From assembly GCF_009914755.1 (NCBI RefSeq), contig NC_060928.1: 64,000 nucleotides of DNA; one strand, given 5' to 3'. Of this stretch, positions 14,046 through 30,042 are shown in pieces. How positions within the stretch are numbered: the first letter of the stretch is position 1; the number at the start of each line of letters is the position of its first letter. The position numbers and the translations under genes are program-made. Under the pieces are notes generated by a model. It saw only the letters and a list, made by a program, of their open reading frames with translations, was not told the origin of the DNA and did no database searches. The stretch is from the human T2T-CHM13v2.0 reference genome, Homo sapiens.

Positions 14046-15365
14046 AGATAGAAGCTAAGAGGGATGGCTGATAAGGATGTGAGGTGGCTAGTTGGAAGGG
14101 TAGCAGGTACCTGCTCTGTCCTAACCATGTCAAACTTGGAGCAAGCTGTCATCTTTATTAGAGAAGTGAGGAGTTAGAAGTGAAGATTAGAAATACAAAA
14201 CTTACAGACAGTCATGTAATAGGGTTAAAACCAGAAATGTCAACTCTGAGCCAAAGTAAGCTAAAGCCTGTGGTGTGTCGGATGCTGGAACAGGAGCCCG
14301 AAGTCCATGTTGGGGCCCAGGTGGAGGGAATAGAATTCTGCTGAGTGCCTGGTTTCTGGCTCTGGCTCTTGCCTCGTGGGAGTTTAGGTTACATTTAGAG
14401 CTGGCAAGCAGTTTCCAGCAGGTGTGGCAATCTCCAGGCCCTTAGATAACTAGTTCACTCTGGGCATGTACACAGTCTTGCAGGGGCTAGTAGATTCCAA
14501 GCATCAAACTAGAGATGGGAGAAGGACAATTTAGGGCCAAGTGGGGAAATTGGCAAGAGTCCCAGGCCCAGGAGCAGCCAGATTTCCTGGGCAGTTACCA
14601 AAATTGGAGCTTGGAAACAAGGCTTAAGAGGTGAAACTCTGTTATTTAGGGTTGGAGGCAGGCTGGAGTTGGGGAATTAGGAGCTCTTTGACTAAAATTG
14701 AGACTTTAGGGTGGAACTAGCAGCCACTGCTACTGGGTGCAAGACCCCAGAGTGGGCTGAAGTCAAAGGCCTCATGCCTCAGTATGGGCTTGATCCTGAG
14801 CATTGGAAATTAGCCTCAGCCTACTACATATGGATCAGGGGTTTCCTGTTGGGGTGGGAGAAGGAAGGATGTAGCTTCGTAGGAGATACATACAAGAACT
14901 CTTTTGGAGATAGCATTTACAGGGCTTGGAAAGAAGACAATGCTGGAGGGTGAGCCTAGCTGGCTGGCTTTATCTAAAATGTGGAATACAGAAATAGTAA
15001 TAATTGTTGACGTTAAACGTCTGAGCCTATGAGTACATAGGGCATCTAGGGAGAGATGTCAGTAATTGATTATATGAGATTGGGATGTGGGAGATCTCTA
15101 CCAAGATCTCTACAGCCAGAAATAAAGACTGGAGCCATCCACACATCGGGATCAGGATGGAGTGAGATTGCGAAGGGAGAGGGCGTTGGGAGTTCGGCAC
15201 ATCGTTTTTGTGTATGCACCATGAAGGAGAAGCCACTCCAAGGGTTGTATTTATTTCCATTTCATTTTATTGCCCCATGATTTTTTTCCCAGATTCCTCC
15301 AATTTCTGGTTGATTCTTCTTTCCTAATGTTTTTCAGATATAACCAGTTTCTCCCAAATAGCTGC

Positions 15366-15708
<343 letters not shown>

Positions 15709-15868
15709 TAAATGCTCAAAAAGTTTATATAGATTCTTCAAGGAGAAAAAAAAAATTTTGGAGAATGCCATATTTTCCATCCTTAAGACAAGGATTTGTG
15801 CTTATTATTCTTTATGATTTTCATTTATAGTAATTGATACTTATGAGATTTCTTTTTAAAAAAAGTCA

Positions 15869-18488
<2,620 letters not shown>

Positions 18489-21005
18489 TTATCATACTCT
18501 CATCAAGGTTAATTCTAGGTTGAACGATCTGACCACACCCTGTACCTCGGAAGCAGCATTCCCTTCAGCCATGGGAGGTTCTTTTTTTCTGCATTTAGCG
18601 GTGGAACTTTTAAGATTTATGTTAATAAGGAAGAGGAAGTTAATTTAAACCTATTTAATAAAACGAATGGTTTTGTAAGTTGGTGTAAGGGTGCGTCAGC
18701 GTAAGTAGTAGAGAGTAGAAATCTATAAGTTCCTGATGGTCAAAATGGTCAAGTTGTTATTCACACTTGTGATTGTAGGGTATGGGTGTCAACTGCTTTT
18801 TCAAACATAGATGGCAAATGTGAAGAACTTCCCAGAACTGAGGTTGAAGCTCCAGATAAGGTAGGCAAGTCATTTACTGATGAACCCGGGGCACTTTGGA
18901 GTGGGAAAGGCAGTATTAGGAATAATCGCACGCAGGAACTTTTCTGGGCAGAGTGGGACTTACGGTCACCCTAGTTCTAGACCTCAGCAATGGTTCCCAG
19001 ATTCCATAATTCAAGGTGAAATGAAATCAAAGTAAGGCATTTCCTCCTTGTTCTGGCATCTAAGTTGAAGGACTGTTCTCTTCTATAAAATACAGGTGGC
19101 TTAAGGTCCTGGAAATGCCGAAAGGAGATTGTCTTCATTGTCAGGCTTTTCCCTTGCGTTTCAAGTCAGGTGACAGTGTTTGGAGACTGTGCTGAGCGGA
19201 TTCAGGGCCCAGCCCCGTGGGTCCTTAATGACTTCAATGTGGGTTTTTAATCTTCTGCCCAAGTGTTATCTTACTTGCCCAGACAAGTCGTTCACCACTA
19301 CAGGAGAGTGTGGGAAAATTAACACTGCCAGAGCAACCAGGGAAGGGACGAAATGTCTGAAGGTAGAAATGAATTGCATTAGGATTTATTTTAATGCAGC
19401 CTGGAAACACACAACTTTAAATCTCTGGGCTGCTTAAGGAGATCCCACACCTTTCCTTGGAGGGAAAAAGAAAAAGAGGATTGAAAAATATACAGACTAC
19501 AGCTATCTTTAATGTTTAAGTTAGCTATCAGGAAACTCGAAATAGTGAATGTAATAAAATGTTGACAGCAGTTTCACTTAACATGCGGTAACTCTGGACT
19601 AGAACGACATCTTTGGCACCAAAGGAAATCGAGAGAATAAAAGCAGCAGTCGTCAGGATTTGAAGGAAGCCACAGATTATTACCATCTGTACATTTTACA
19701 GACCTCTTACAAAAACCAGAAACCCAGGACCCAGACTGGAGTGTAAGTATATTGAGCTCTGGGGTGTGTTGTTAGATGGAGGAAACTCAGAAATTGGTCT
19801 GAATTTTTAAACACAATGCTTCATAAAACCTGACTATTCTGTTCTGGCGATGTTAGAACTTGTCTATAATCTGAAACAGCAGATTTATTTGGAGGGGTTA
19901 TTTGCATGTCTCATGTGGGATATCCCATTGTTTCAAACCTTTACTATACCAGGCCTTCATACTTCCACGATTTCTCTGTAAATGTAGAATTATCTGTAAA
20001 TTGCTCTCTGATTTCAGATTGTTCTTATGTGATGGGTTGTGTGTTCTTTCCTGAAGCTTGTGGAAAGGTCATCGTCAAACACATATAAGTGTCTTGAATA
20101 ATGAATTGGTTCATCACTACCATAGATCACTTAGCTTGGACTTTTCTATTATTCTTGAGAAGGTACTTTCTCATGAACCTCCATTAAATATCAGTAGAAG
20201 AAGGTTTTGCCCAGTGTTTATTTGACATTATAACTTGGGCCAATGGTTAGATTCTCTGCAGTTGAAACTCATAGATAGAGACTAAACATAAAACATGCAA
20301 GTTTCACATCAGATGTTTTTGTGTGTGTCTGTGTGTTTTAATCAGGGCTTATATTTGCTCAGAGATATTAGACCTGAACTCCTAAACTCTAGCCCTTGAA
20401 AAACTAGATTCATGGCAGGGGGCAGGGGGGATGGTGAGTTTATTATTTTTTATAAAAAGTAAAAGTGTTTTAAAATAGCAAGTAGTGAATAAGAGAGGCC
20501 CATTTACCTAAAATGTTTACATAAAAATAGAGTTACATCCATGTAAATGGGACTGTTAGGTAAATTATTTGACATCTCATGGAGAAATAGAAACTTTCTC
20601 ATAAATGATTTTGATATAGAGCACTGAAAATACAATTTAATGGAATCATTTCAACTTAAAAATGACAATTAATGACAGATTGGAGAAGTCAGCCAATTAT
20701 CGCTTAGTGCTTTTCTATCCAACACATATGGAAGATTGCTTATAAACAGGGAATGTTTTTTTTAACATGCATATGAATTTAGTATAATATTTGTCAATTC
20801 TTAGCTAGTTTGGCAACATTAAAATCTTAGATCTTTGATACTTAGACTAGTGTCCCGAATATGAAATGTTCCATGGATAGATTTGTTCATTCTTTGCAAC
20901 CCCTGAAATATTAATGTTTAAGCAAGAAACTCTTCACCCCAATATTTTTCTTTGGTAACCTAAGATTCACAGAGTGATGTAATAGAGTATTTGGCCAAAT
21001 TAAAA

Positions 21006-21360
21006 TGAGGGAAGGTGCAAATAACAGAATTAATTCCCACAGCTGTCGAATACGAGGTTAGCAAGTAAGTGAAATCACACGCATTACTTTGGGTGTTTAA
21101 TTCTGAAAACTACTCATCCAAGTGTTCACTTTGAAATTTAATTGTGTGTATTTGTGTCTCTTCTCCTGAAGGGTGCTCTTCTGTTAGGGCAGCCCATGCC
21201 GTTTTTTAAATTAATGGTGCAGATTCTTTTAGTTCATAGGCTCGTCTTGGGGGAGTAATGCAGGCATGTGTGAAAGGGGCCGTGAGCCTTTGTGGACTCT
21301 TGGGTCCTATCTGATAAATGATTGCTTCAATACACTAAATGGGCCCCAGTGTCCTAGAAA
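21006..21360 (+). repeat. left arm of long inverted repeat
   Basis: Reverse complement of 22052-22402, ~90% identical by hand alignment. Confidence 0.97.
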
Positions 21361-22051
21361 CGTTCATATCATTTCCACATGTTCACTTCCTTTTCCTGGA
21401 AAGTGTAACTTATGACAAGGGTAACTTGGAAATCCAAGCTCATTATTGGAGAAAAACGAATGGTCGTCTATTTGGCATATGTTTTGAAAATAACCTCAGT
21501 GTGGGAAAATCTTTTGTGAAGTTTATTATGAATCTGTTTATAGTATACTTTTCAAAATGTGTATGTAAGCATCTTAAGGCTTAAGAAAAGAAAGCGCTAA
21601 GTAGGCATAGTTGATTTCTCCTATTGCAAAAATACAAGTGAGCAAGGAAGAAGACTATGCAGCGGAAGGTATGGTTGGAATGATGTGTTGAGGAATGTTA
21701 ATGATTCGTCTGGAAGCGTGCAAATGTGGGGCAAGTGCAGGCCCTTCACTTCCATCCTGGCTTCTTTTTGAAGTGACATTTGGCATTTTAGCTGCCTCAC
21801 GATGCTACTCTGATAGGAATCTTCTGCCTATGGTGCACATTCGGAGAATGCTCTGGCCACAGCTGCTCTGGTTTGGGTCAGGAGTAGGGCAAGCTTTGCT
21901 GAAGGTGGCAGCTGCCCTGGCCTGTCTCCTCTGAGTTCGCTTCCAGCCTAGGTCTCATTCCTGGCCTGGTGGTAGCATCTTGCTGCAGGGATGGACCTCT
22001 CAGAAACATCCTAAGTGCGCACCCTGGGGTCTCGAATAGGCTGGTCACAGA

Positions 22052-22402
22052 TTTCTAGGACACTGAGGCCCATTTAGTGTATTGAAGCAATCATTTATCA
22101 GATAGGACCCAAGAGTCCAGAAAGGCTCACGGCCCCTTTCACACATGTCGACATTACTCCCCCAAGACGAGCCTATGAACTAAAAAATCTGCACCATTAA
22201 TTAAAGAAATGGCATGGGCTACACTAACAGAAGAGCACCCTTCAGGAGAACAGACGCAAATACGCACAAACAGTTGCAAAGTGAACACTCGGATGAGTAG
22301 TTTTCAGCATTAAACACTTAAAGTAGTGTGTGATTCAACTTACTTGCTAACCTCGTATTTGACAGGTGAGGGTATTAATTCTGTTATTTCCACCTTCCCT
22401 CA
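22052..22402 (-). repeat. right arm of long inverted repeat
   Basis: tttctaggacactg...ttatttccaccttccctca mirrors tgagggaaggtg...cagtgtcctagaaa at 21006-21360. Confidence 0.97.
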
Positions 22403-22978
22403 GCAGTCTCCATCCAAACTGAAGGGCAGTTCAGGGATCTGCCTTCCAAAGCCTTGTCTAAAAGCCGTCCCTGCTCTCAGCCACCTGCCCCTGGCTGACT
22501 GCAGCTAATGGTAGGGTGGTTCATGTGAACATCGCTTTGCAGTTAGCTGTCTTGGACTCGGACCCCGGGGGATGATAGCTCCCTTGCCCAAGAATAATGG
22601 GGTGTTTTGTTGTTACAGAAGAAGGGAAGGGAGATGTGAAAGTGCTACTTTAAAAATAGTCTTTTTTCAGTAGTGTCTGTTTAATAGTTACTGCATATAT
22701 ATTAATGTGTGTAGCTTTATTTTTTTTGACACTTACCCTATGGGACCAAAACAGTCAGCTACCAAGTCTTATTGAGAATTTACTTTGGAAAGTCCTGGAG
22801 ATTTGGTCTGTGGCATCTGACTGAGGAGAGAGGACATGTGAAGAGGCAGGGAGGGAGATGAGTGGATAATTAGATTAAATTGTGTGGTAGAGGCTGGGAG
22901 GGGTTTGGAGGGGTTTGGAGGACAGGAAGTTCAAACAAGCCTTCCTCTCCCTTCTCTAGGGTAATCCTTCTGCCTGGT

Positions 22979-23403
22979 AGGATTGGTTGCCCTGTAGGAC
23001 TGGTTGTCCCACAGGACTGGTCATCCTGCAGAACTGGTTATCCCGCAGGACTGGTTATCCTGCAGGTCTGGTCATCCCACAGGACTGGTCATCCTGCAGG
23101 TCTCATCATCCCACAGGACTGGTTATCCCACAGGACTGGTCATCTCGCAGGACTGGTTATCCTGCAGGACTGGTCATCTTGCAGGACTGGTCATTCCACA
23201 GGACTGGTTATCCTGCAGTACTGGTTATCCCATAGGACTGGTTGCCTCGTAGGACTGGTCATCCCGCAGGACTGGTTATCCCGCAGGACTGGTTGCCTCA
23301 TAGGATTGGTCATCCCACAGGACTGGTTATCCTGCAGGACTGGTTATCCCACAGGACTCGTTGCCTCGTAGGACTGGTCATCCTGCAGGACTGGTTATCC
23401 CAT
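22979..23403. repeat. 17-bp minisatellite (AGGACTGGT[T/C]ATCC[CA/TG]C)n, ~25 copies
   Basis: aggactggttatcccac / aggactggtcatcctgc units in tandem with variants. Confidence 0.97.
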
Positions 23404-23876
23404 TGAAGGCAGTGCCACGGCTGCCTGGATTCCCAGCCTTCCACATACTGACATGTGCAGGTCATCTCCGAATTTGAGGTTCTGCCCGATTCAGCTTCTT
23501 AATCTACTTATTTTTCCTCTTCTCCACATAACTTAAAAGATGTTCTGCTTTCATTCCTTTTATCTTGTTACCCCTTACCTCTGGGGTCCTTCCCACCTCC
23601 TGAATCCCGGGCAGCTGTGGAATGGAGGAACGTTCCCCCCAGCCCTGTCTCTTTCTCCTCCAGCTCTGCCCCAGTGCTGCTGGTGTCCCTGTCTGCTTTG
23701 CAGCCCCCCTTCCTTGGTTTCTGGAAAGCTGCTCTGTCCTTGTTTGCATCGATGCTGTTGGCGGCACAGCTCCCTCCCATGCCTCTGAGGGTATCCCCAG
23801 GTTTCAGTCCTGCCCATCCCCCTGTTCTCTCCCTGGGATAATGATAATTCATCCACTCTTCTCTCCCTACAGGAGT

Positions 23877-24000
23877 CAGTCATTCACTTCTCAAACATTT
23901 ATCGAGTGCCTTTTATACCCCAGGAACTGATCCAGGCATTGGAGTAGAAGGATGAGGGCAAAAACTGGGTCCCTGCCTCCTGTAGTCCACAGTGAGGAGC
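23877..24000 (-). mobile_element. L2 3' fragment
   Basis: cattcacttctcaaacatttatcgagtgcc...tccctgcctc. Confidence 0.6.
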
Positions 24001-24547
24001 GGGTAGTAAATAGGCCTCCCCAGCACAGCTGGAAGGGCAACCCCTGGGGAAGTGCAGGCTCCCTGGGGGACCCTCAGGGGGCACCATGCCTGACCTCACT
24101 GCACAGCCCCATCCCTAAGCTCTCCCTTGCCCCTCCGCCTCCCGGATGACCTATCCACACTTCAGACAAAGCAGCTCCACAGGGAAACCCACAATCTGTT
24201 CCTCCAAGCTAAGTGCCCTGCTGCTGGCCCATTCTTGACACTGTGACCTGCGTCTCCTGCCCTGTGCGGGCTGCAAGCCTGGGAGTCCCACTACAGCTCT
24301 AGTTTCCCTTCAGATCCTTACCCAGTCAGCCACCCACCCGGCAGCTCTTCTGCTGTCGTTGCGCTCAGCTCTGCTTCCGACTTTCCATTCCTGTTGCCTC
24401 TGCCCACGGCCGGAGCCTCCCTGCCTCATTCGTGCACTGTTTCGTATTTATAGATGGGGTATTTACTTCCTCAGAGATTTAAAAAAGTTACCCAAGTGGT
24501 TCATGTTCATGGTGGAAAATAATTAGAAAATAGAGAAAAAGAGAAAG

Positions 24548-24585
24548 AAGGAAGGAAGGAAGGAAGGAAGGAAGGGAGGGACGGG
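24548..24585. repeat. (GGAA)n microsatellite
   Basis: aaggaaggaaggaaggaaggaaggaagggagggacggg. Confidence 0.9.
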
Positions 24586-27984: not shown

Positions 27985-28401
<417 letters not shown>

Positions 28402-30042
28402 AATGTTAAGTGTTATGAGGAAAATAAAATACCCGAATGGGCCAGAAGACAGCTGTCAGAGGGTGCCTCTACAAGGGTGACCAGGGAAGGCCCTTCTGAA
28501 GAAGTGACAATGGGAAGACCCAGGGAGGAGCTGTCCATGGGAGGGAGCAGTGGGAGGCCCCTGGGCGGGAGAGGCTGGCACGCATTTGAGTGGCAAGAAG
28601 AAGCCATGCGAGAGTCGGCAGGGTTTACACCCTGAGGGCTCGATACAGGCTTTGGGGGCAAATTGCGTTTTAAGATCAAGGGTAATTAGTGTCCTGAGAA
28701 AAACCAAGGAAACTCAGAAGAGGGAGGGATCGCGCCCCACCACCTCTCTCTAACGGTGCCCTGTGGGACTTGGACAGTGTGGTTTCCTTGTAAACACAGG
28801 GCCTCCCTGGACCGTCACTACCACCTCGTGAGGCCTACAAGGAAGGCGTGGTTATTTCCGGTCAGACAGGAGGTGACAGACACTGGGAGGGCCTAAGGCT
28901 TGTTGCAGAACTCCTTTTACCACACCAGGGAGCCCACCAATCTCACTGGGGATGTTTAGGTTGCTCATGTCATCGTAGTTCAGGATCTTCCGACCTAAGA
29001 AACAAGCCAACTCCTGCAGGAAGCAGGTAGCCTTGTGTCTCCCACAAGGTCATCTGAGAACATCGGTGGCGTACAGGACTCATGAAAGAAGCGGTCCTGG
29101 GTGAGTGACGTGGACATGGAGCACAGTGCCTCCCAGCCCTGGAGAGTCCCAATGTGGAACGCTGTAAAGCCTCTGAGAAGCTCTGCAGTAAGGAAACCCA
29201 TGAACTGTGCCCCCCACACCAGGCCATAGGAGCTCTTTTGTATGCCATGTCCATTGACATCTCAAGGAATGCAAGTTCTGGAGGTGCCACTTGGAAAACG
29301 CCAGCTGAGAGAGCTGCTATAGAGTGTTTACTAAATGAGCTCTTGAAAGAGTTCAAGGATTTTCTGAGCCTGAAAGTCTTCTCTGTGTGAAAGGATTAGA
29401 AACAACATTTGTAAAGCACTTCCATATGCGTAGAATGAAGACTCTGGATGAATGGAGATTCAAAGTGTTGAAAATCATAAATCCACTCCTGTTTTGTACA
29501 CGAATGTTAATTACTTTGCCCTTTGAACTCATAGTGTTTCCATTAGTATTGCGTGACGATTGGCTTGTTCTTCGGGACTCTAGGATCTCAAAGCAGGAAC
29601 CAGTCTTATCTGGTTTAAAAGATAAATGTTCTAAACCACACATGGCTTTGATTTTGGATTACTACCTACAAGGCTACATATTTACATAGAAAAGAGTCCA
29701 TTTCTAGATTGCTTATAACCATTTATACCTGTTTTCATACAGATTATTATTCTTTTAATTTTTTTTGTTTGCTCTTGCCTAGGGATTTACACAACCGTAT
29801 CTGAACTTGGAGGAAATGTTTTTGATAGGTGTTCACAGAACCACTGAGCTCTGGCAGTTTGTGGAAGAGTGTCTGGTTGACTTTAATTCGAAACAGAATG
29901 TTCAGACCTCTTAGCACCTTCATTTCTCTTCATTTTCCAGCTCCAGCTCCATCTGTATTTCCTCCTTCATTTTAACTCTGTGGTCCACACTTTAAAGTAT
30001 GTGAATGTTATTTTTTTTAATAGTCTGTATTGCCTAGAGTTC

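What the first reader, a model, noticed from the sequence alone, without database searches (positions are those of the whole stretch)
21006..22402. ~350-bp non-Alu inverted duplication around a 691-bp spacer
Seen: 21006-21360 is the reverse complement of 22052-22402, with about 29 substitutions and 4 gap bases by hand (~90%). I recognise no transposon consensus in the arms and see no flanking TSD (ccaaattaaaa vs gcagtctcc). Established: closely spaced inverted repeats mediate small recurrent inversions by non-allelic homologous recombination, and form long dsRNA substrates for ADAR when transcribed. Inference: this could be an orientation-polymorphic 0.7-kb cassette and/or a locus-specific non-Alu hairpin RNA.
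Basis: partly seen in the sequence, partly recalled or inferred. Interest (0 to 1): 0.8.

Follow-up and report, generated by a model that had tools for sequence, protein, structure and literature searches.

The report
Old local inverted duplication in STOX2 intron
A 355-base stretch of unique intron DNA in the human STOX2 gene was copied long ago in reverse orientation 691 bases away, leaving a real but probably inert inverted repeat that should fold the intron RNA into a long hairpin.

Summary
21006-21360 is the reverse complement of 22052-22402: 323 matches, 27 substitutions, 6 gap columns, a 691-nt spacer and sharp ends.

It is not a transposon pair. In the whole T2T genome the arm matches only itself and its partner. 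Two masked control stretches gave 4838 and 59 candidates. I found no target-site duplication, Rfam family, Pfam match or long open frame.

The best reading is one ancient local inverted duplication. It arose either by a replicative template switch or as the by-product of a staggered-break micro-inversion. From 8-11% arm divergence and recalled substitution rates I infer an age of roughly 20-55 Myr.

Both arms lie in one STOX2 intron on the sense strand. The pre-mRNA is predicted to form a ~330-bp, 94%-paired stem, the kind of structure ADAR edits. Editing, transcription and function could not be tested here.

Orientation polymorphism was also untestable. It looks unlikely: the arms are 91% identical and the longest perfect run is 53 nt.

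The inner 134 nt of the arms are more alike (96%) than the rest, which hints weakly at past gene conversion. Overall this is an ordinary member of a catalogued kind and of low interest.

The parts
21006..21360 (+). Left arm of the inverted duplication (355 nt, 42% GC)
   Evidence: Searches give the alignment and the sharp ends. In the genome it matches only itself and the right arm.
21361..22051 (.). Unique 691-nt spacer, which forms the loop of the predicted hairpin. GC is 35% in its left half and 54% in its right half.
   Evidence: No other copy in the window (blastn word 7; nhmmer --max) or in the genome. It has no internal inverted symmetry. The longest stop-to-stop frame is 81 aa, and 0 Pfam families matched the 6 frames tested.
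22052..22402 (-). Right arm (351 nt), the reverse complement of the left arm
   Evidence: Genome hit at 91% identity, E = 8.9e-134.
21227..21360 (+). Inner sub-block of the left arm, next to the spacer. It is more similar to its partner 22052-22185 (96%) than the rest of the arm is.
   Evidence: pair I1. There are 5 differences in the inner 134 columns against 28 in the outer 222 (Fisher p = 0.0045). In permutations, a window this clean anywhere in the arm has p = 0.04-0.05, and at either end p = 0.004-0.005. JC distance is 0.038 for the inner part and 0.110 for the outer part.
22052..22185 (-). Inner sub-block of the right arm, partner of 21227-21360
   Evidence: Same calls as for the left inner sub-block: 1, 5, 29 and 45.

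Best explanation
This is the fossil of one local rearrangement. A 355-nt piece of unique intronic DNA was duplicated in inverted orientation 691 nt away, inside an intron of STOX2. It is not a pair of transposon copies and not a transposon with long terminal repeats.

Two mechanisms give exactly this anatomy. One is a replication-based template switch or fold-back that copies a nearby stretch backwards. The other is a micro-inversion made by staggered breaks whose filled-in overhang becomes an inverted duplication at the breakpoints. Present-day sequence cannot tell them apart.

The arms then diverged by ordinary substitutions and small indels to 8% overall and 11% in the outer two thirds. With recalled neutral rates of 1.0-2.2e-9 per site per year, that puts the event at roughly 20-55 Myr ago. 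It should therefore be shared by apes and Old World monkeys.

The inner ~134 nt may have been homogenised later by arm-to-arm gene conversion.

Today its one predictable consequence is at the RNA level. Both arms are transcribed in the same STOX2 pre-mRNA, so the intron should fold into a ~330-bp imperfect duplex closing a 691-nt loop. That structure is a generic nuclear ADAR substrate and leaves with the intron.

Shown: the repeat, its uniqueness, its sharp ends, and the in-silico stem. Inferred: the mechanism of origin, the age, gene conversion, folding in the cell, editing, and lack of function.
For: (1) The repeat is real and has discrete ends.

(2) It is unique to this locus. The arm gave 2 first-look candidates and 2 matches in the 3.1-Gb genome. 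The 4.5-kb region 19500-24000 matched only itself and the arm pair. The same tool gave 4838 candidates for a 307-nt masked stretch. For a 1527-nt masked stretch it gave 59 candidates, with hits down to 66-72% identity.

(3) Inside the window, blastn with word 7 and an nhmmer --max profile of the two arms (next best E = 3.8) find no third copy of arms, spacer or flanks.

(4) There is no target-site duplication around the unit or around either arm. There were 0 Rfam matches at E <= 1. No frame exceeds 81 aa, and 0 Pfam families matched the 6 frames tested.

(5) Divergence is JC 0.081 overall, 0.110 in the outer part and 0.038 in the inner part. Six of the 27 substitutions are CpG-associated.

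(6) Predicted RNA stem. MFE is -785.3 kcal/mol. Of the 355 left-arm bases, 332 pair with the right arm, 10 of them as G:U. 94% of arm bases are paired and the longest helix is 53 bp. Arm-arm duplex energy is -579 kcal/mol against -127.5 +/- 7.8 for 30 shuffles.

(7) Precedent for the origin. In Drosophila, 17 of 29 inversions carry inverted duplications of ancestrally unique sequence at their breakpoints. Their median length is 321 bp and their identity about 88%, and in 12 cases only one breakpoint region is duplicated (Ranz 2007, PMC1885836, passages).

(8) The hub's gene table places the window inside STOX2 (+ strand) with no exon in it.
Against: No outgroup or second human haplotype could be examined. 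The single-event origin, the age and the neutrality are therefore inferences.

No clear microhomology is visible at the junctions, so a template switch has no direct support.

The transition:transversion ratio of 14:13 is lower than the roughly 2:1 I recall for neutral primate DNA. Several differences are adjacent doublets or triplets. The divergence clock is therefore rough.

The excess similarity of the inner 134 nt could reflect selection on that part rather than gene conversion. That would argue against an inert fossil.

The genome search is word-seeded and scores only the best candidates. Very old, highly diverged repeat fragments inside the arms cannot be excluded.
Confidence: 0.7

Rival explanations
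1. The inverted repeat drives NAHR, so the 691-nt spacer flips between orientations and is polymorphic or recurrently inverted in humans or primates.
For: Inverted repeats of this size are within the published range. One preprint quotes 54 NAHR inversions mediated by repeats of 140 bp to 134 kb, and candidate inversions from 197 bp upward (10.1101/2025.05.27.656315, passages). Inversion frequency rises with the ratio of repeat length to inversion length (Giner-Delgado 2019, PMC6748972, passages). Here that ratio is high, 355/691. The better-matched inner 134 nt would fit past exchange between the arms.
Against: The arms are only 90.7-92.3% identical and the longest perfect run is 53 nt. In Giner-Delgado 2019 the 24 NAHR inversions had repeats of 654 bp to 24.2 kb at >90% identity. 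About 85% of human inversions under 2 kb are attributed to L1 twin priming rather than NAHR (Porubsky preprint 10.1101/2021.12.20.472354; only the abstract start in the listing was seen). T2T-CHM13 holds 627,791 inverted pairs of >=200 bp and >=80% identity (PMC11794170) against a few hundred known inversions, so the prior is small. GC rises smoothly from the AT-rich left flank through the spacer to the GC-richer right flank. That is a weak hint that the present orientation is the original one.
Confidence: 0.05
2. The hairpin is a selected, functional RNA element of the STOX2 pre-mRNA. It could be an ADAR-binding or edited structure that affects splicing or intron fate, or a source of small RNAs. 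Selection or gene conversion would be keeping the arms complementary.
For: The stem is long and stable on the sense strand: -785.3 kcal/mol against -729.0 for the antisense transcript. It holds 188 paired adenosines, 153 of them without a 5' G. The inner 134 nt are 96% identical. Non-repetitive dsRNAs are described as sparse in the human genome, and 4,597 of them are edited (Andrews & Bass preprint, PMC11838218, passages).
Against: The substitutions show no sign of selection for pairing. Of the 14 transitions, 9 give G:U and 5 give A:C in the sense RNA (binomial p = 0.42). There are 13 transversions and 6 indel columns that break pairs. There is no Rfam match. No other genomic copy exists that small RNAs could target in trans. 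At 94% paired and 91-92% identity the stem falls below the >300 bp, >96% class treated as MDA5-relevant. The intron also leaves the mRNA. STOX2 does not appear in the main texts or held supplements of the two dsRNA surveys.
Confidence: 0.08
3. The arms are two independent insertions of an interspersed repeat, or the whole 1.4-kb unit is one DNA transposon or foldback element with ~350-nt terminal inverted repeats.
For: The overall shape, long inverted ends around a short core, resembles a long-TIR element. The genome search is word-seeded, so very old families could be missed.
Against: The arm has only 2 genomic places and the spacer and flanks have none elsewhere, while the controls returned 4838 and 59 candidates. 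Two independent copies only 8% apart would imply a young family with many similar copies. There is no target-site duplication of any length >=6 at the unit's ends or around either arm. Neither arm appears among the 20 longest NCBI-masked stretches in the hub's table. The shortest stretch listed there is 307 nt, so a fully masked 355-nt arm would have been listed.
Confidence: 0.03
4. The repeat is an assembly artefact, a fold-back or chimeric read assembled into T2T-CHM13.
For: Inverted duplications can be produced by long-read library artefacts (recalled, not from a call).
Against: The arms differ by 27 substitutions and 6 indel columns and are separated by 691 nt of unique sequence. An artefact would give near-identical arms joined at a point.
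Confidence: 0.01

Closest known systems
Inversion-associated inverted duplications of unique sequence (staggered-break model; Ranz et al. 2007, PMC1885836)
   Same: An inverted duplicate of ancestrally unique, non-repetitive sequence flanks a segment. The size fits (355 nt here, median 321 bp there), as does the arm identity (91% here, about 88% there). As in 12 of their inversions, only one breakpoint region is duplicated.
   Different: Those cases are in Drosophila, span large chromosomal inversions, and were proven with outgroups. Here the enclosed segment is only 691 nt, the host is human, and no outgroup shows that the spacer was ever inverted.
Inverted Alu pairs in introns (the usual intramolecular dsRNA substrates of ADAR)
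   Same: Two ~300-nt inverted arms lie within about 1 kb in one pre-mRNA and are predicted to form a long imperfect duplex. The same window holds such a pair at 15359-15705 / 15842-16178.
   Different: The arms here are not a repeat family: 2 genomic places against 4838 candidates for an Alu-like control. The stem can therefore form only in cis with its own partner. Editing was not tested.
Human NAHR inversion loci flanked by small inverted repeats (InvFEST / HsInv set)
   Same: Inverted repeats >=140 bp at >=90% identity bracket a short unique segment.
   Different: No second orientation has been observed. The arms sit at the low end for both length and identity, and the longest perfect run is 53 nt.
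Long-TIR DNA transposons, MITEs and foldback elements
   Same: Long inverted termini surround a short core.
   Different: It is a single copy in the genome, has no target-site duplication, and has no coding remnant.
Segmental-duplication palindromes with arm-to-arm gene conversion (X/Y palindromes; recalled, not from a call)
   Same: Inverted arms surround a unique spacer, and part of the arm may have been homogenised (the inner 134 nt at 96%).
   Different: This repeat is smaller by two to three orders of magnitude and falls below the 1-kb size I recall as the usual definition of segmental duplications. Its arms are 91% identical rather than >99%. The evidence for conversion is weak (p about 0.04 after allowing for any window).

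Membership tests
Interspersed-repeat (e.g. Alu) inverted pair | Each arm is a copy of a family with many dispersed genomic members | tested here: not met
   The arm has 2 candidates and 2 matches genome-wide. Controls gave 4838 and 59 candidates. There is no third copy in the window by blastn word 7 or nhmmer --max.
DNA transposon / MITE / foldback element with long terminal inverted repeats | Target-site duplication directly flanking the termini | tested here: not met
   The only shared words between the 30-nt outer flanks are 5-mers that do not abut the junctions.
DNA transposon / MITE / foldback element with long terminal inverted repeats | Other copies of the element, or of its termini, in the genome | tested here: not met
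   The 4.5-kb region around the unit matches only itself and the arm pair.
Segmental duplication | >=1 kb and >=90% identity (definition recalled; PMC11794170 speaks of '>1 kb, >90%' LCRs/SDs) | tested here: not met
   The arms are 355 and 351 nt and 90.7-92.3% identical. Identity is met but length is not.
Catalogued intrachromosomal inverted repeat pair (PMC11794170 criteria) | >=200 bp and >=80% identity, same chromosome, inverted | tested here: met
   355 nt at 91% identity; criteria. I could not check whether this pair is in their files. Their Table S4 lists STOX2 only as 'flanked: yes, overlapped: no'.
NAHR-mediated polymorphic inversion | Inverted repeats at both breakpoints | tested here: met
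NAHR-mediated polymorphic inversion | Both orientations of the enclosed segment observed among haplotypes or species | not testable with these tools
   Only one assembly (G000) is held, and states it has no relatives here.
Staggered-break inversion scar | An outgroup with a single copy of the arm and the enclosed segment in the opposite orientation | not testable with these tools
   No primate outgroup sequence is available. The GC trend across the spacer weakly favours the present orientation as ancestral.
ADAR-edited intramolecular dsRNA (editing-enriched region) | Both arms in one transcript and a stable long stem | tested here: met
   In silico only. The hub's gene table puts the window inside STOX2 (+) with no exon in it. 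MFE is -785.3 kcal/mol with 332 arm-arm pairs.
ADAR-edited intramolecular dsRNA (editing-enriched region) | Clusters of A-to-G mismatches on both arms in RNA-seq | not testable with these tools
   No expression or editing data are held. Full-text searches for STOX2 with editing terms gave 1 paper on mouse DNA modifications, judged from its listing only and not opened.
Long, nearly perfect dsRNA (putative MDA5 substrate class) | >300 bp and >96% paired or identical | tested here: not met
   Length is met, with 332 pairs. Pairing is 94% and arm identity 91-92%. The stem is also intronic.
hpRNA / endo-siRNA locus | A trans target sharing the arm sequence, and 21-22-nt small RNAs | tested here: not met
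   No other genomic place shares the arm sequence. Small RNAs are not testable here.
Known structured RNA family (Rfam 15) | Match to a covariance model | tested here: not met
   0 matches at E <= 1 in 19500-24500, both strands.

The most novel reading that the evidence does not exclude
The repeat is not inert. It would be a sub-kilobase, non-transposon palindrome whose arms still exchange sequence, with the inner 134 nt kept at 96% by gene conversion. Its spacer would have flipped at least once in primates. Its sense-strand hairpin would be a conserved, heavily edited ADAR substrate in the brain-expressed gene STOX2. That would make it a miniature autosomal counterpart of the sex-chromosome palindromes with an RNA-level role.
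Probability: 0.06. Interest if true: 0.55.

Novelty: new member of a known kind. Interest (0 to 1): 0.2.

Why it matters
As it stands it matters little. It is one more small inverted duplication in an intron, of a kind that genome-wide catalogues count in bulk. T2T-CHM13 holds 627,791 inverted pairs and dsRNAscan predicts about 5.1 million dsRNAs.

It has modest value as a clean example. Because the arms are unique sequence, reads map to them unambiguously. That makes the locus a convenient test case for three things: ADAR editing of a non-repeat hairpin, whether ~350-nt repeats at ~91% identity ever mediate inversion, and dating a primate template-switch or staggered-break event.

If an outgroup showed the spacer inverted, the locus would be a human example of the Drosophila-style case where inversion creates the inverted repeat. 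That would reverse the usual causal reading.

Tried and rejected
- **Transposon origin.** Rejected by the genome search of the arm and of the 4.5-kb region, with two positive controls, blastn word 7 and nhmmer --max in the window.
- **Target-site duplications.** Checked around the whole unit and around each arm. None found.
- **Longer arms or hidden symmetry.** The outer flanks (inverted and direct) and the two spacer halves align no better than shuffles.
- **Structured RNA family.** Rfam gave 0 hits at E <= 1.
- **Coding remnant.** There are 20 stop-to-stop frames of >=40 aa and the longest is 81 aa. I scanned 6 of these 20 against Pfam and got 0 families at E <= 1.
- **Selection for RNA pairing.** Transitions split 9 G:U to 5 A:C, not significant.
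- **Palindromic GATA-type motif in the arms.** There are 4 hits against 2.9 expected, and 37 of 100 shuffles reach 4, so this is chance level. The motif itself was recalled.
- **Junction microhomology.** Inspection of the junction sequences shows at most 1-3 low-complexity bases. This is uninformative.
- **Literature on this locus.** STOX2 + 'inverted repeat' gave 1 paper, a lymphoma review. STOX2 + A-to-I + editing gave 1 paper on mouse DNA modifications. I judged both unrelated from their listings and did not open them.
- **Supplements.** STOX2 is absent from the held supplements of PMC11838218 (1 file) and PMC7006430 (3 files). It is present only as a gene-level flag in PMC11794170 Table S4. 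The large tables of these papers and the supplements of bioRxiv preprints were not available and may list the locus.

Full report
**1. The observation**

The repeat finder returns four collinear inverted blocks that tile 21006-21360 against 22052-22402, with identities of 88-96%.

A gapped local alignment given 100 extra bases on all sides ends precisely at those coordinates. The global alignment has 323 matches, 27 substitutions and 6 gap columns. That is 92.3% identity without gaps and 90.7% over all 356 columns. The arms are 355 and 351 nt and the spacer is 691 nt.

Chance is excluded: E = 7.9e-115 in the window and E = 8.9e-134 in the genome.

The ends are sharp. The 400-nt outer flanks align no better than shuffled sequence, whether compared inverted or direct. 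The two halves of the spacer are not inverted copies of each other.

**2. What it is not**

The window's own genome is held (3.1 Gb, 24 contigs). The left arm gave 2 first-look candidates and 2 matches, itself and the right arm. The 4.5 kb around the unit (19500-24000) matched only itself plus the two arm cross-hits.

The search does see repeats. A 307-nt masked stretch (28101-28407) gave 4838 candidates, of which 40 were scored. A 1527-nt masked stretch (16956-18482) gave 59 candidates, with hits down to 66-72% identity.

Inside the window, blastn with 7-nt words and an nhmmer --max profile of the two arms (next best E = 3.8) find no further copy of arms, spacer or flanks.

Two independent insertions only 8% apart would imply a young family with many similar copies, and there are none.

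- No target-site duplication lies around the unit or around either arm.
- Rfam gives nothing at E <= 1.
- The longest stop-to-stop frame is 81 aa.
- Six of the 20 frames were scanned against Pfam and gave 0 families.

In one search, 28 inverted pairs of >=80 nt within 5 kb were found and the 25 longest shown. Two of these are blocks of this repeat. Each of the other 23 has at least one arm inside a stretch that the hub's table lists as masked, and they cross-match one another as one family would. This is therefore the only non-family inverted repeat of that size among those shown.

An assembly artefact is excluded by the 33 differing columns and the unique spacer.

**3. Origin**

The anatomy is a discrete inverted copy of unique sequence a few hundred bases from its source. 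Two known routes fit it.

(a) A replication-based template switch or fold-back (FoSTeS/MMBIR type) that copies a neighbouring stretch backwards. These mechanisms are named in PMC11794170 (passages).

(b) A staggered-break inversion, where the filled-in overhang becomes an inverted duplication at the breakpoints. Ranz et al. 2007 (PMC1885836, passages) found such duplications of ancestrally unique sequence at 17 of 29 Drosophila inversions. Their median length was 321 bp and their identity about 88%. In 12 cases only one breakpoint region was duplicated, which is the picture here.

Under (b) the repeat is the product of an inversion of the spacer, not a cause of future ones.

I see no informative microhomology at the junctions.

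One weak pointer favours the present spacer orientation as ancestral, and hence route (a). GC rises smoothly from the AT-rich left flank (30-36%) through the spacer (35% in the left half, 54% in the right) to the GC-richer right flank. Only an outgroup can decide.

**4. Age**

JC distance between the arms is 0.081 overall, 0.110 in the outer 222 columns and 0.038 in the inner 134. With recalled neutral rates of 1.0-2.2e-9 per site per year, the overall and outer figures give about 19-55 Myr.

This is an inference and it is rough. Transitions and transversions are 14:13. Six of the 27 substitutions are CpG-associated. Several differences are adjacent.

The prediction is that the repeat is present in apes and Old World monkeys, possibly in New World monkeys.

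**5. The identity gradient**

The inner 134 columns next to the spacer carry 5 differences and the outer 222 carry 28 (Fisher p = 0.0045).

Allowing for any window position, a stretch this clean arises in 4-5% of permutations. Restricted to an end of the arm, it arises in 0.4-0.5%.

This is modest evidence. It is compatible with a later gene-conversion tract, with constraint on that part, or with chance.

**6. What it does now**

The hub's table places the window within STOX2 on the + strand with no exon in it, so both arms lie in one intron of the sense pre-mRNA.

- The 1397-nt unit folds at -785.3 kcal/mol, with the arms paired end to end.
- Of the 355 left-arm bases, 332 pair with the right arm, 10 of them as G:U. 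94% of arm bases are paired and the longest uninterrupted helix is 53 bp.
- Arm-arm duplex energy is -579 kcal/mol against -127.5 +/- 7.8 for 30 shuffles.
- The antisense transcript would fold at -729.0 kcal/mol.

This is the kind of structure ADAR edits. [quoted passage not shown] Non-repetitive dsRNAs are described as sparse, with 4,597 of them edited (Andrews & Bass preprint, PMC11838218, sections 9-10 and passages).

The stem falls short of the '>300 bp and >96%' class linked to MDA5. Being intronic, it should not reach the cytoplasm.

Nothing in the substitutions indicates selection for pairing: 9 G:U-compatible against 5 A:C transitions, p = 0.42. No second genomic site exists that small RNAs from the arms could target.

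Folding in cells, editing and small RNAs were not testable here.

**7. DNA-level behaviour**

Distance and divergence between inverted repeats reduce their fragility (Ait Saada et al. 2023, PMC10164571, abstract). A 691-nt spacer and 8-9% divergence put this pair on the stable side under normal conditions.

NAHR inversion is not excluded. Inverted repeats down to 140 bp and inversions down to 197 bp are in the candidate and validated sets (preprint 10.1101/2025.05.27.656315, passages). A high ratio of repeat length to inversion length favours recurrence (PMC6748972, passages).

Against it:
- The 24 validated NAHR inversions in that study had repeats of 654 bp to 24.2 kb.
- Breakpoints fall in regions of high identity (Aguado 2014, PMC3961182, passages).
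- The longest perfect run here is 53 nt.
- Hundreds of thousands of comparable inverted pairs exist, against a few hundred known inversions.

I put a human polymorphism at about 5%.

**8. Comparison and novelty**

The locus works like an inverted Alu pair at the RNA level, but it is not a member of any repeat family. It looks like a long-TIR element but fails the copy-number and target-site-duplication tests. It meets the criteria of catalogued intrachromosomal inverted repeats (>=200 bp, >=80%), though not the size I recall as defining segmental duplications.

Its closest structural precedent is the inversion-associated inverted duplication of Drosophila.

No paper in the searched library discusses this locus. 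Bulk catalogues probably contain it, but I could not verify that. Large supplementary tables and bioRxiv supplements were not available.

**Verdict**

This is a new member of a known kind: real, locus-specific and most likely inert. Interest is low at 0.2. The boldest reading still open is a conversion-maintained, flipping, edited mini-palindrome, at about 6%.

Noticed in passing
window 22911-23484: A minisatellite with a 17-nt unit (about 23-34 copies; TRF reports it as period 34 and 51, about 80% matches) lies ~0.5 kb to the right of the right arm. The 4.5-kb genome search that covered it found no other genomic copy.
   Followed up: partly
window 16228-18482: The masked stretch 16956-18482 has a 95% identical direct copy that overlaps it and is shifted upstream (window about 16228-17605). 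This suggests a local tandem duplication inside a repeat-rich block. Purine skew at 18000-18400 is extreme (GC skew 0.95, AT skew 0.68).
   Followed up: no
window 15359-15705 and 15842-16178: An inverted pair of Alu-like masked elements has arms 84-90% complementary and only 174-439 nt apart. It is a more ordinary candidate ADAR substrate in the same intron (pairs I5 and I10).
   Followed up: no
window 22145-22154 (and left-arm counterpart near 21257-21266): Three substitutions within 4 nt (alignment columns 256-259) make a perfect 10-nt palindrome in the right arm only. A clustered change of this kind is what short template-switch mutations produce (mechanism recalled; sequence fact).
   Followed up: partly
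window 21307-21317 and 22095-22105: Each arm carries an overlapping palindromic GATA-type motif (ATCWGATAR on both strands). These are the only 4 hits in the window, but 2.9 are expected by chance and 37 of 100 shuffles reach 4, so it is not significant.
   Followed up: yes
window 24543-24579: A short (GAAG)n microsatellite of 9 copies.
   Followed up: no
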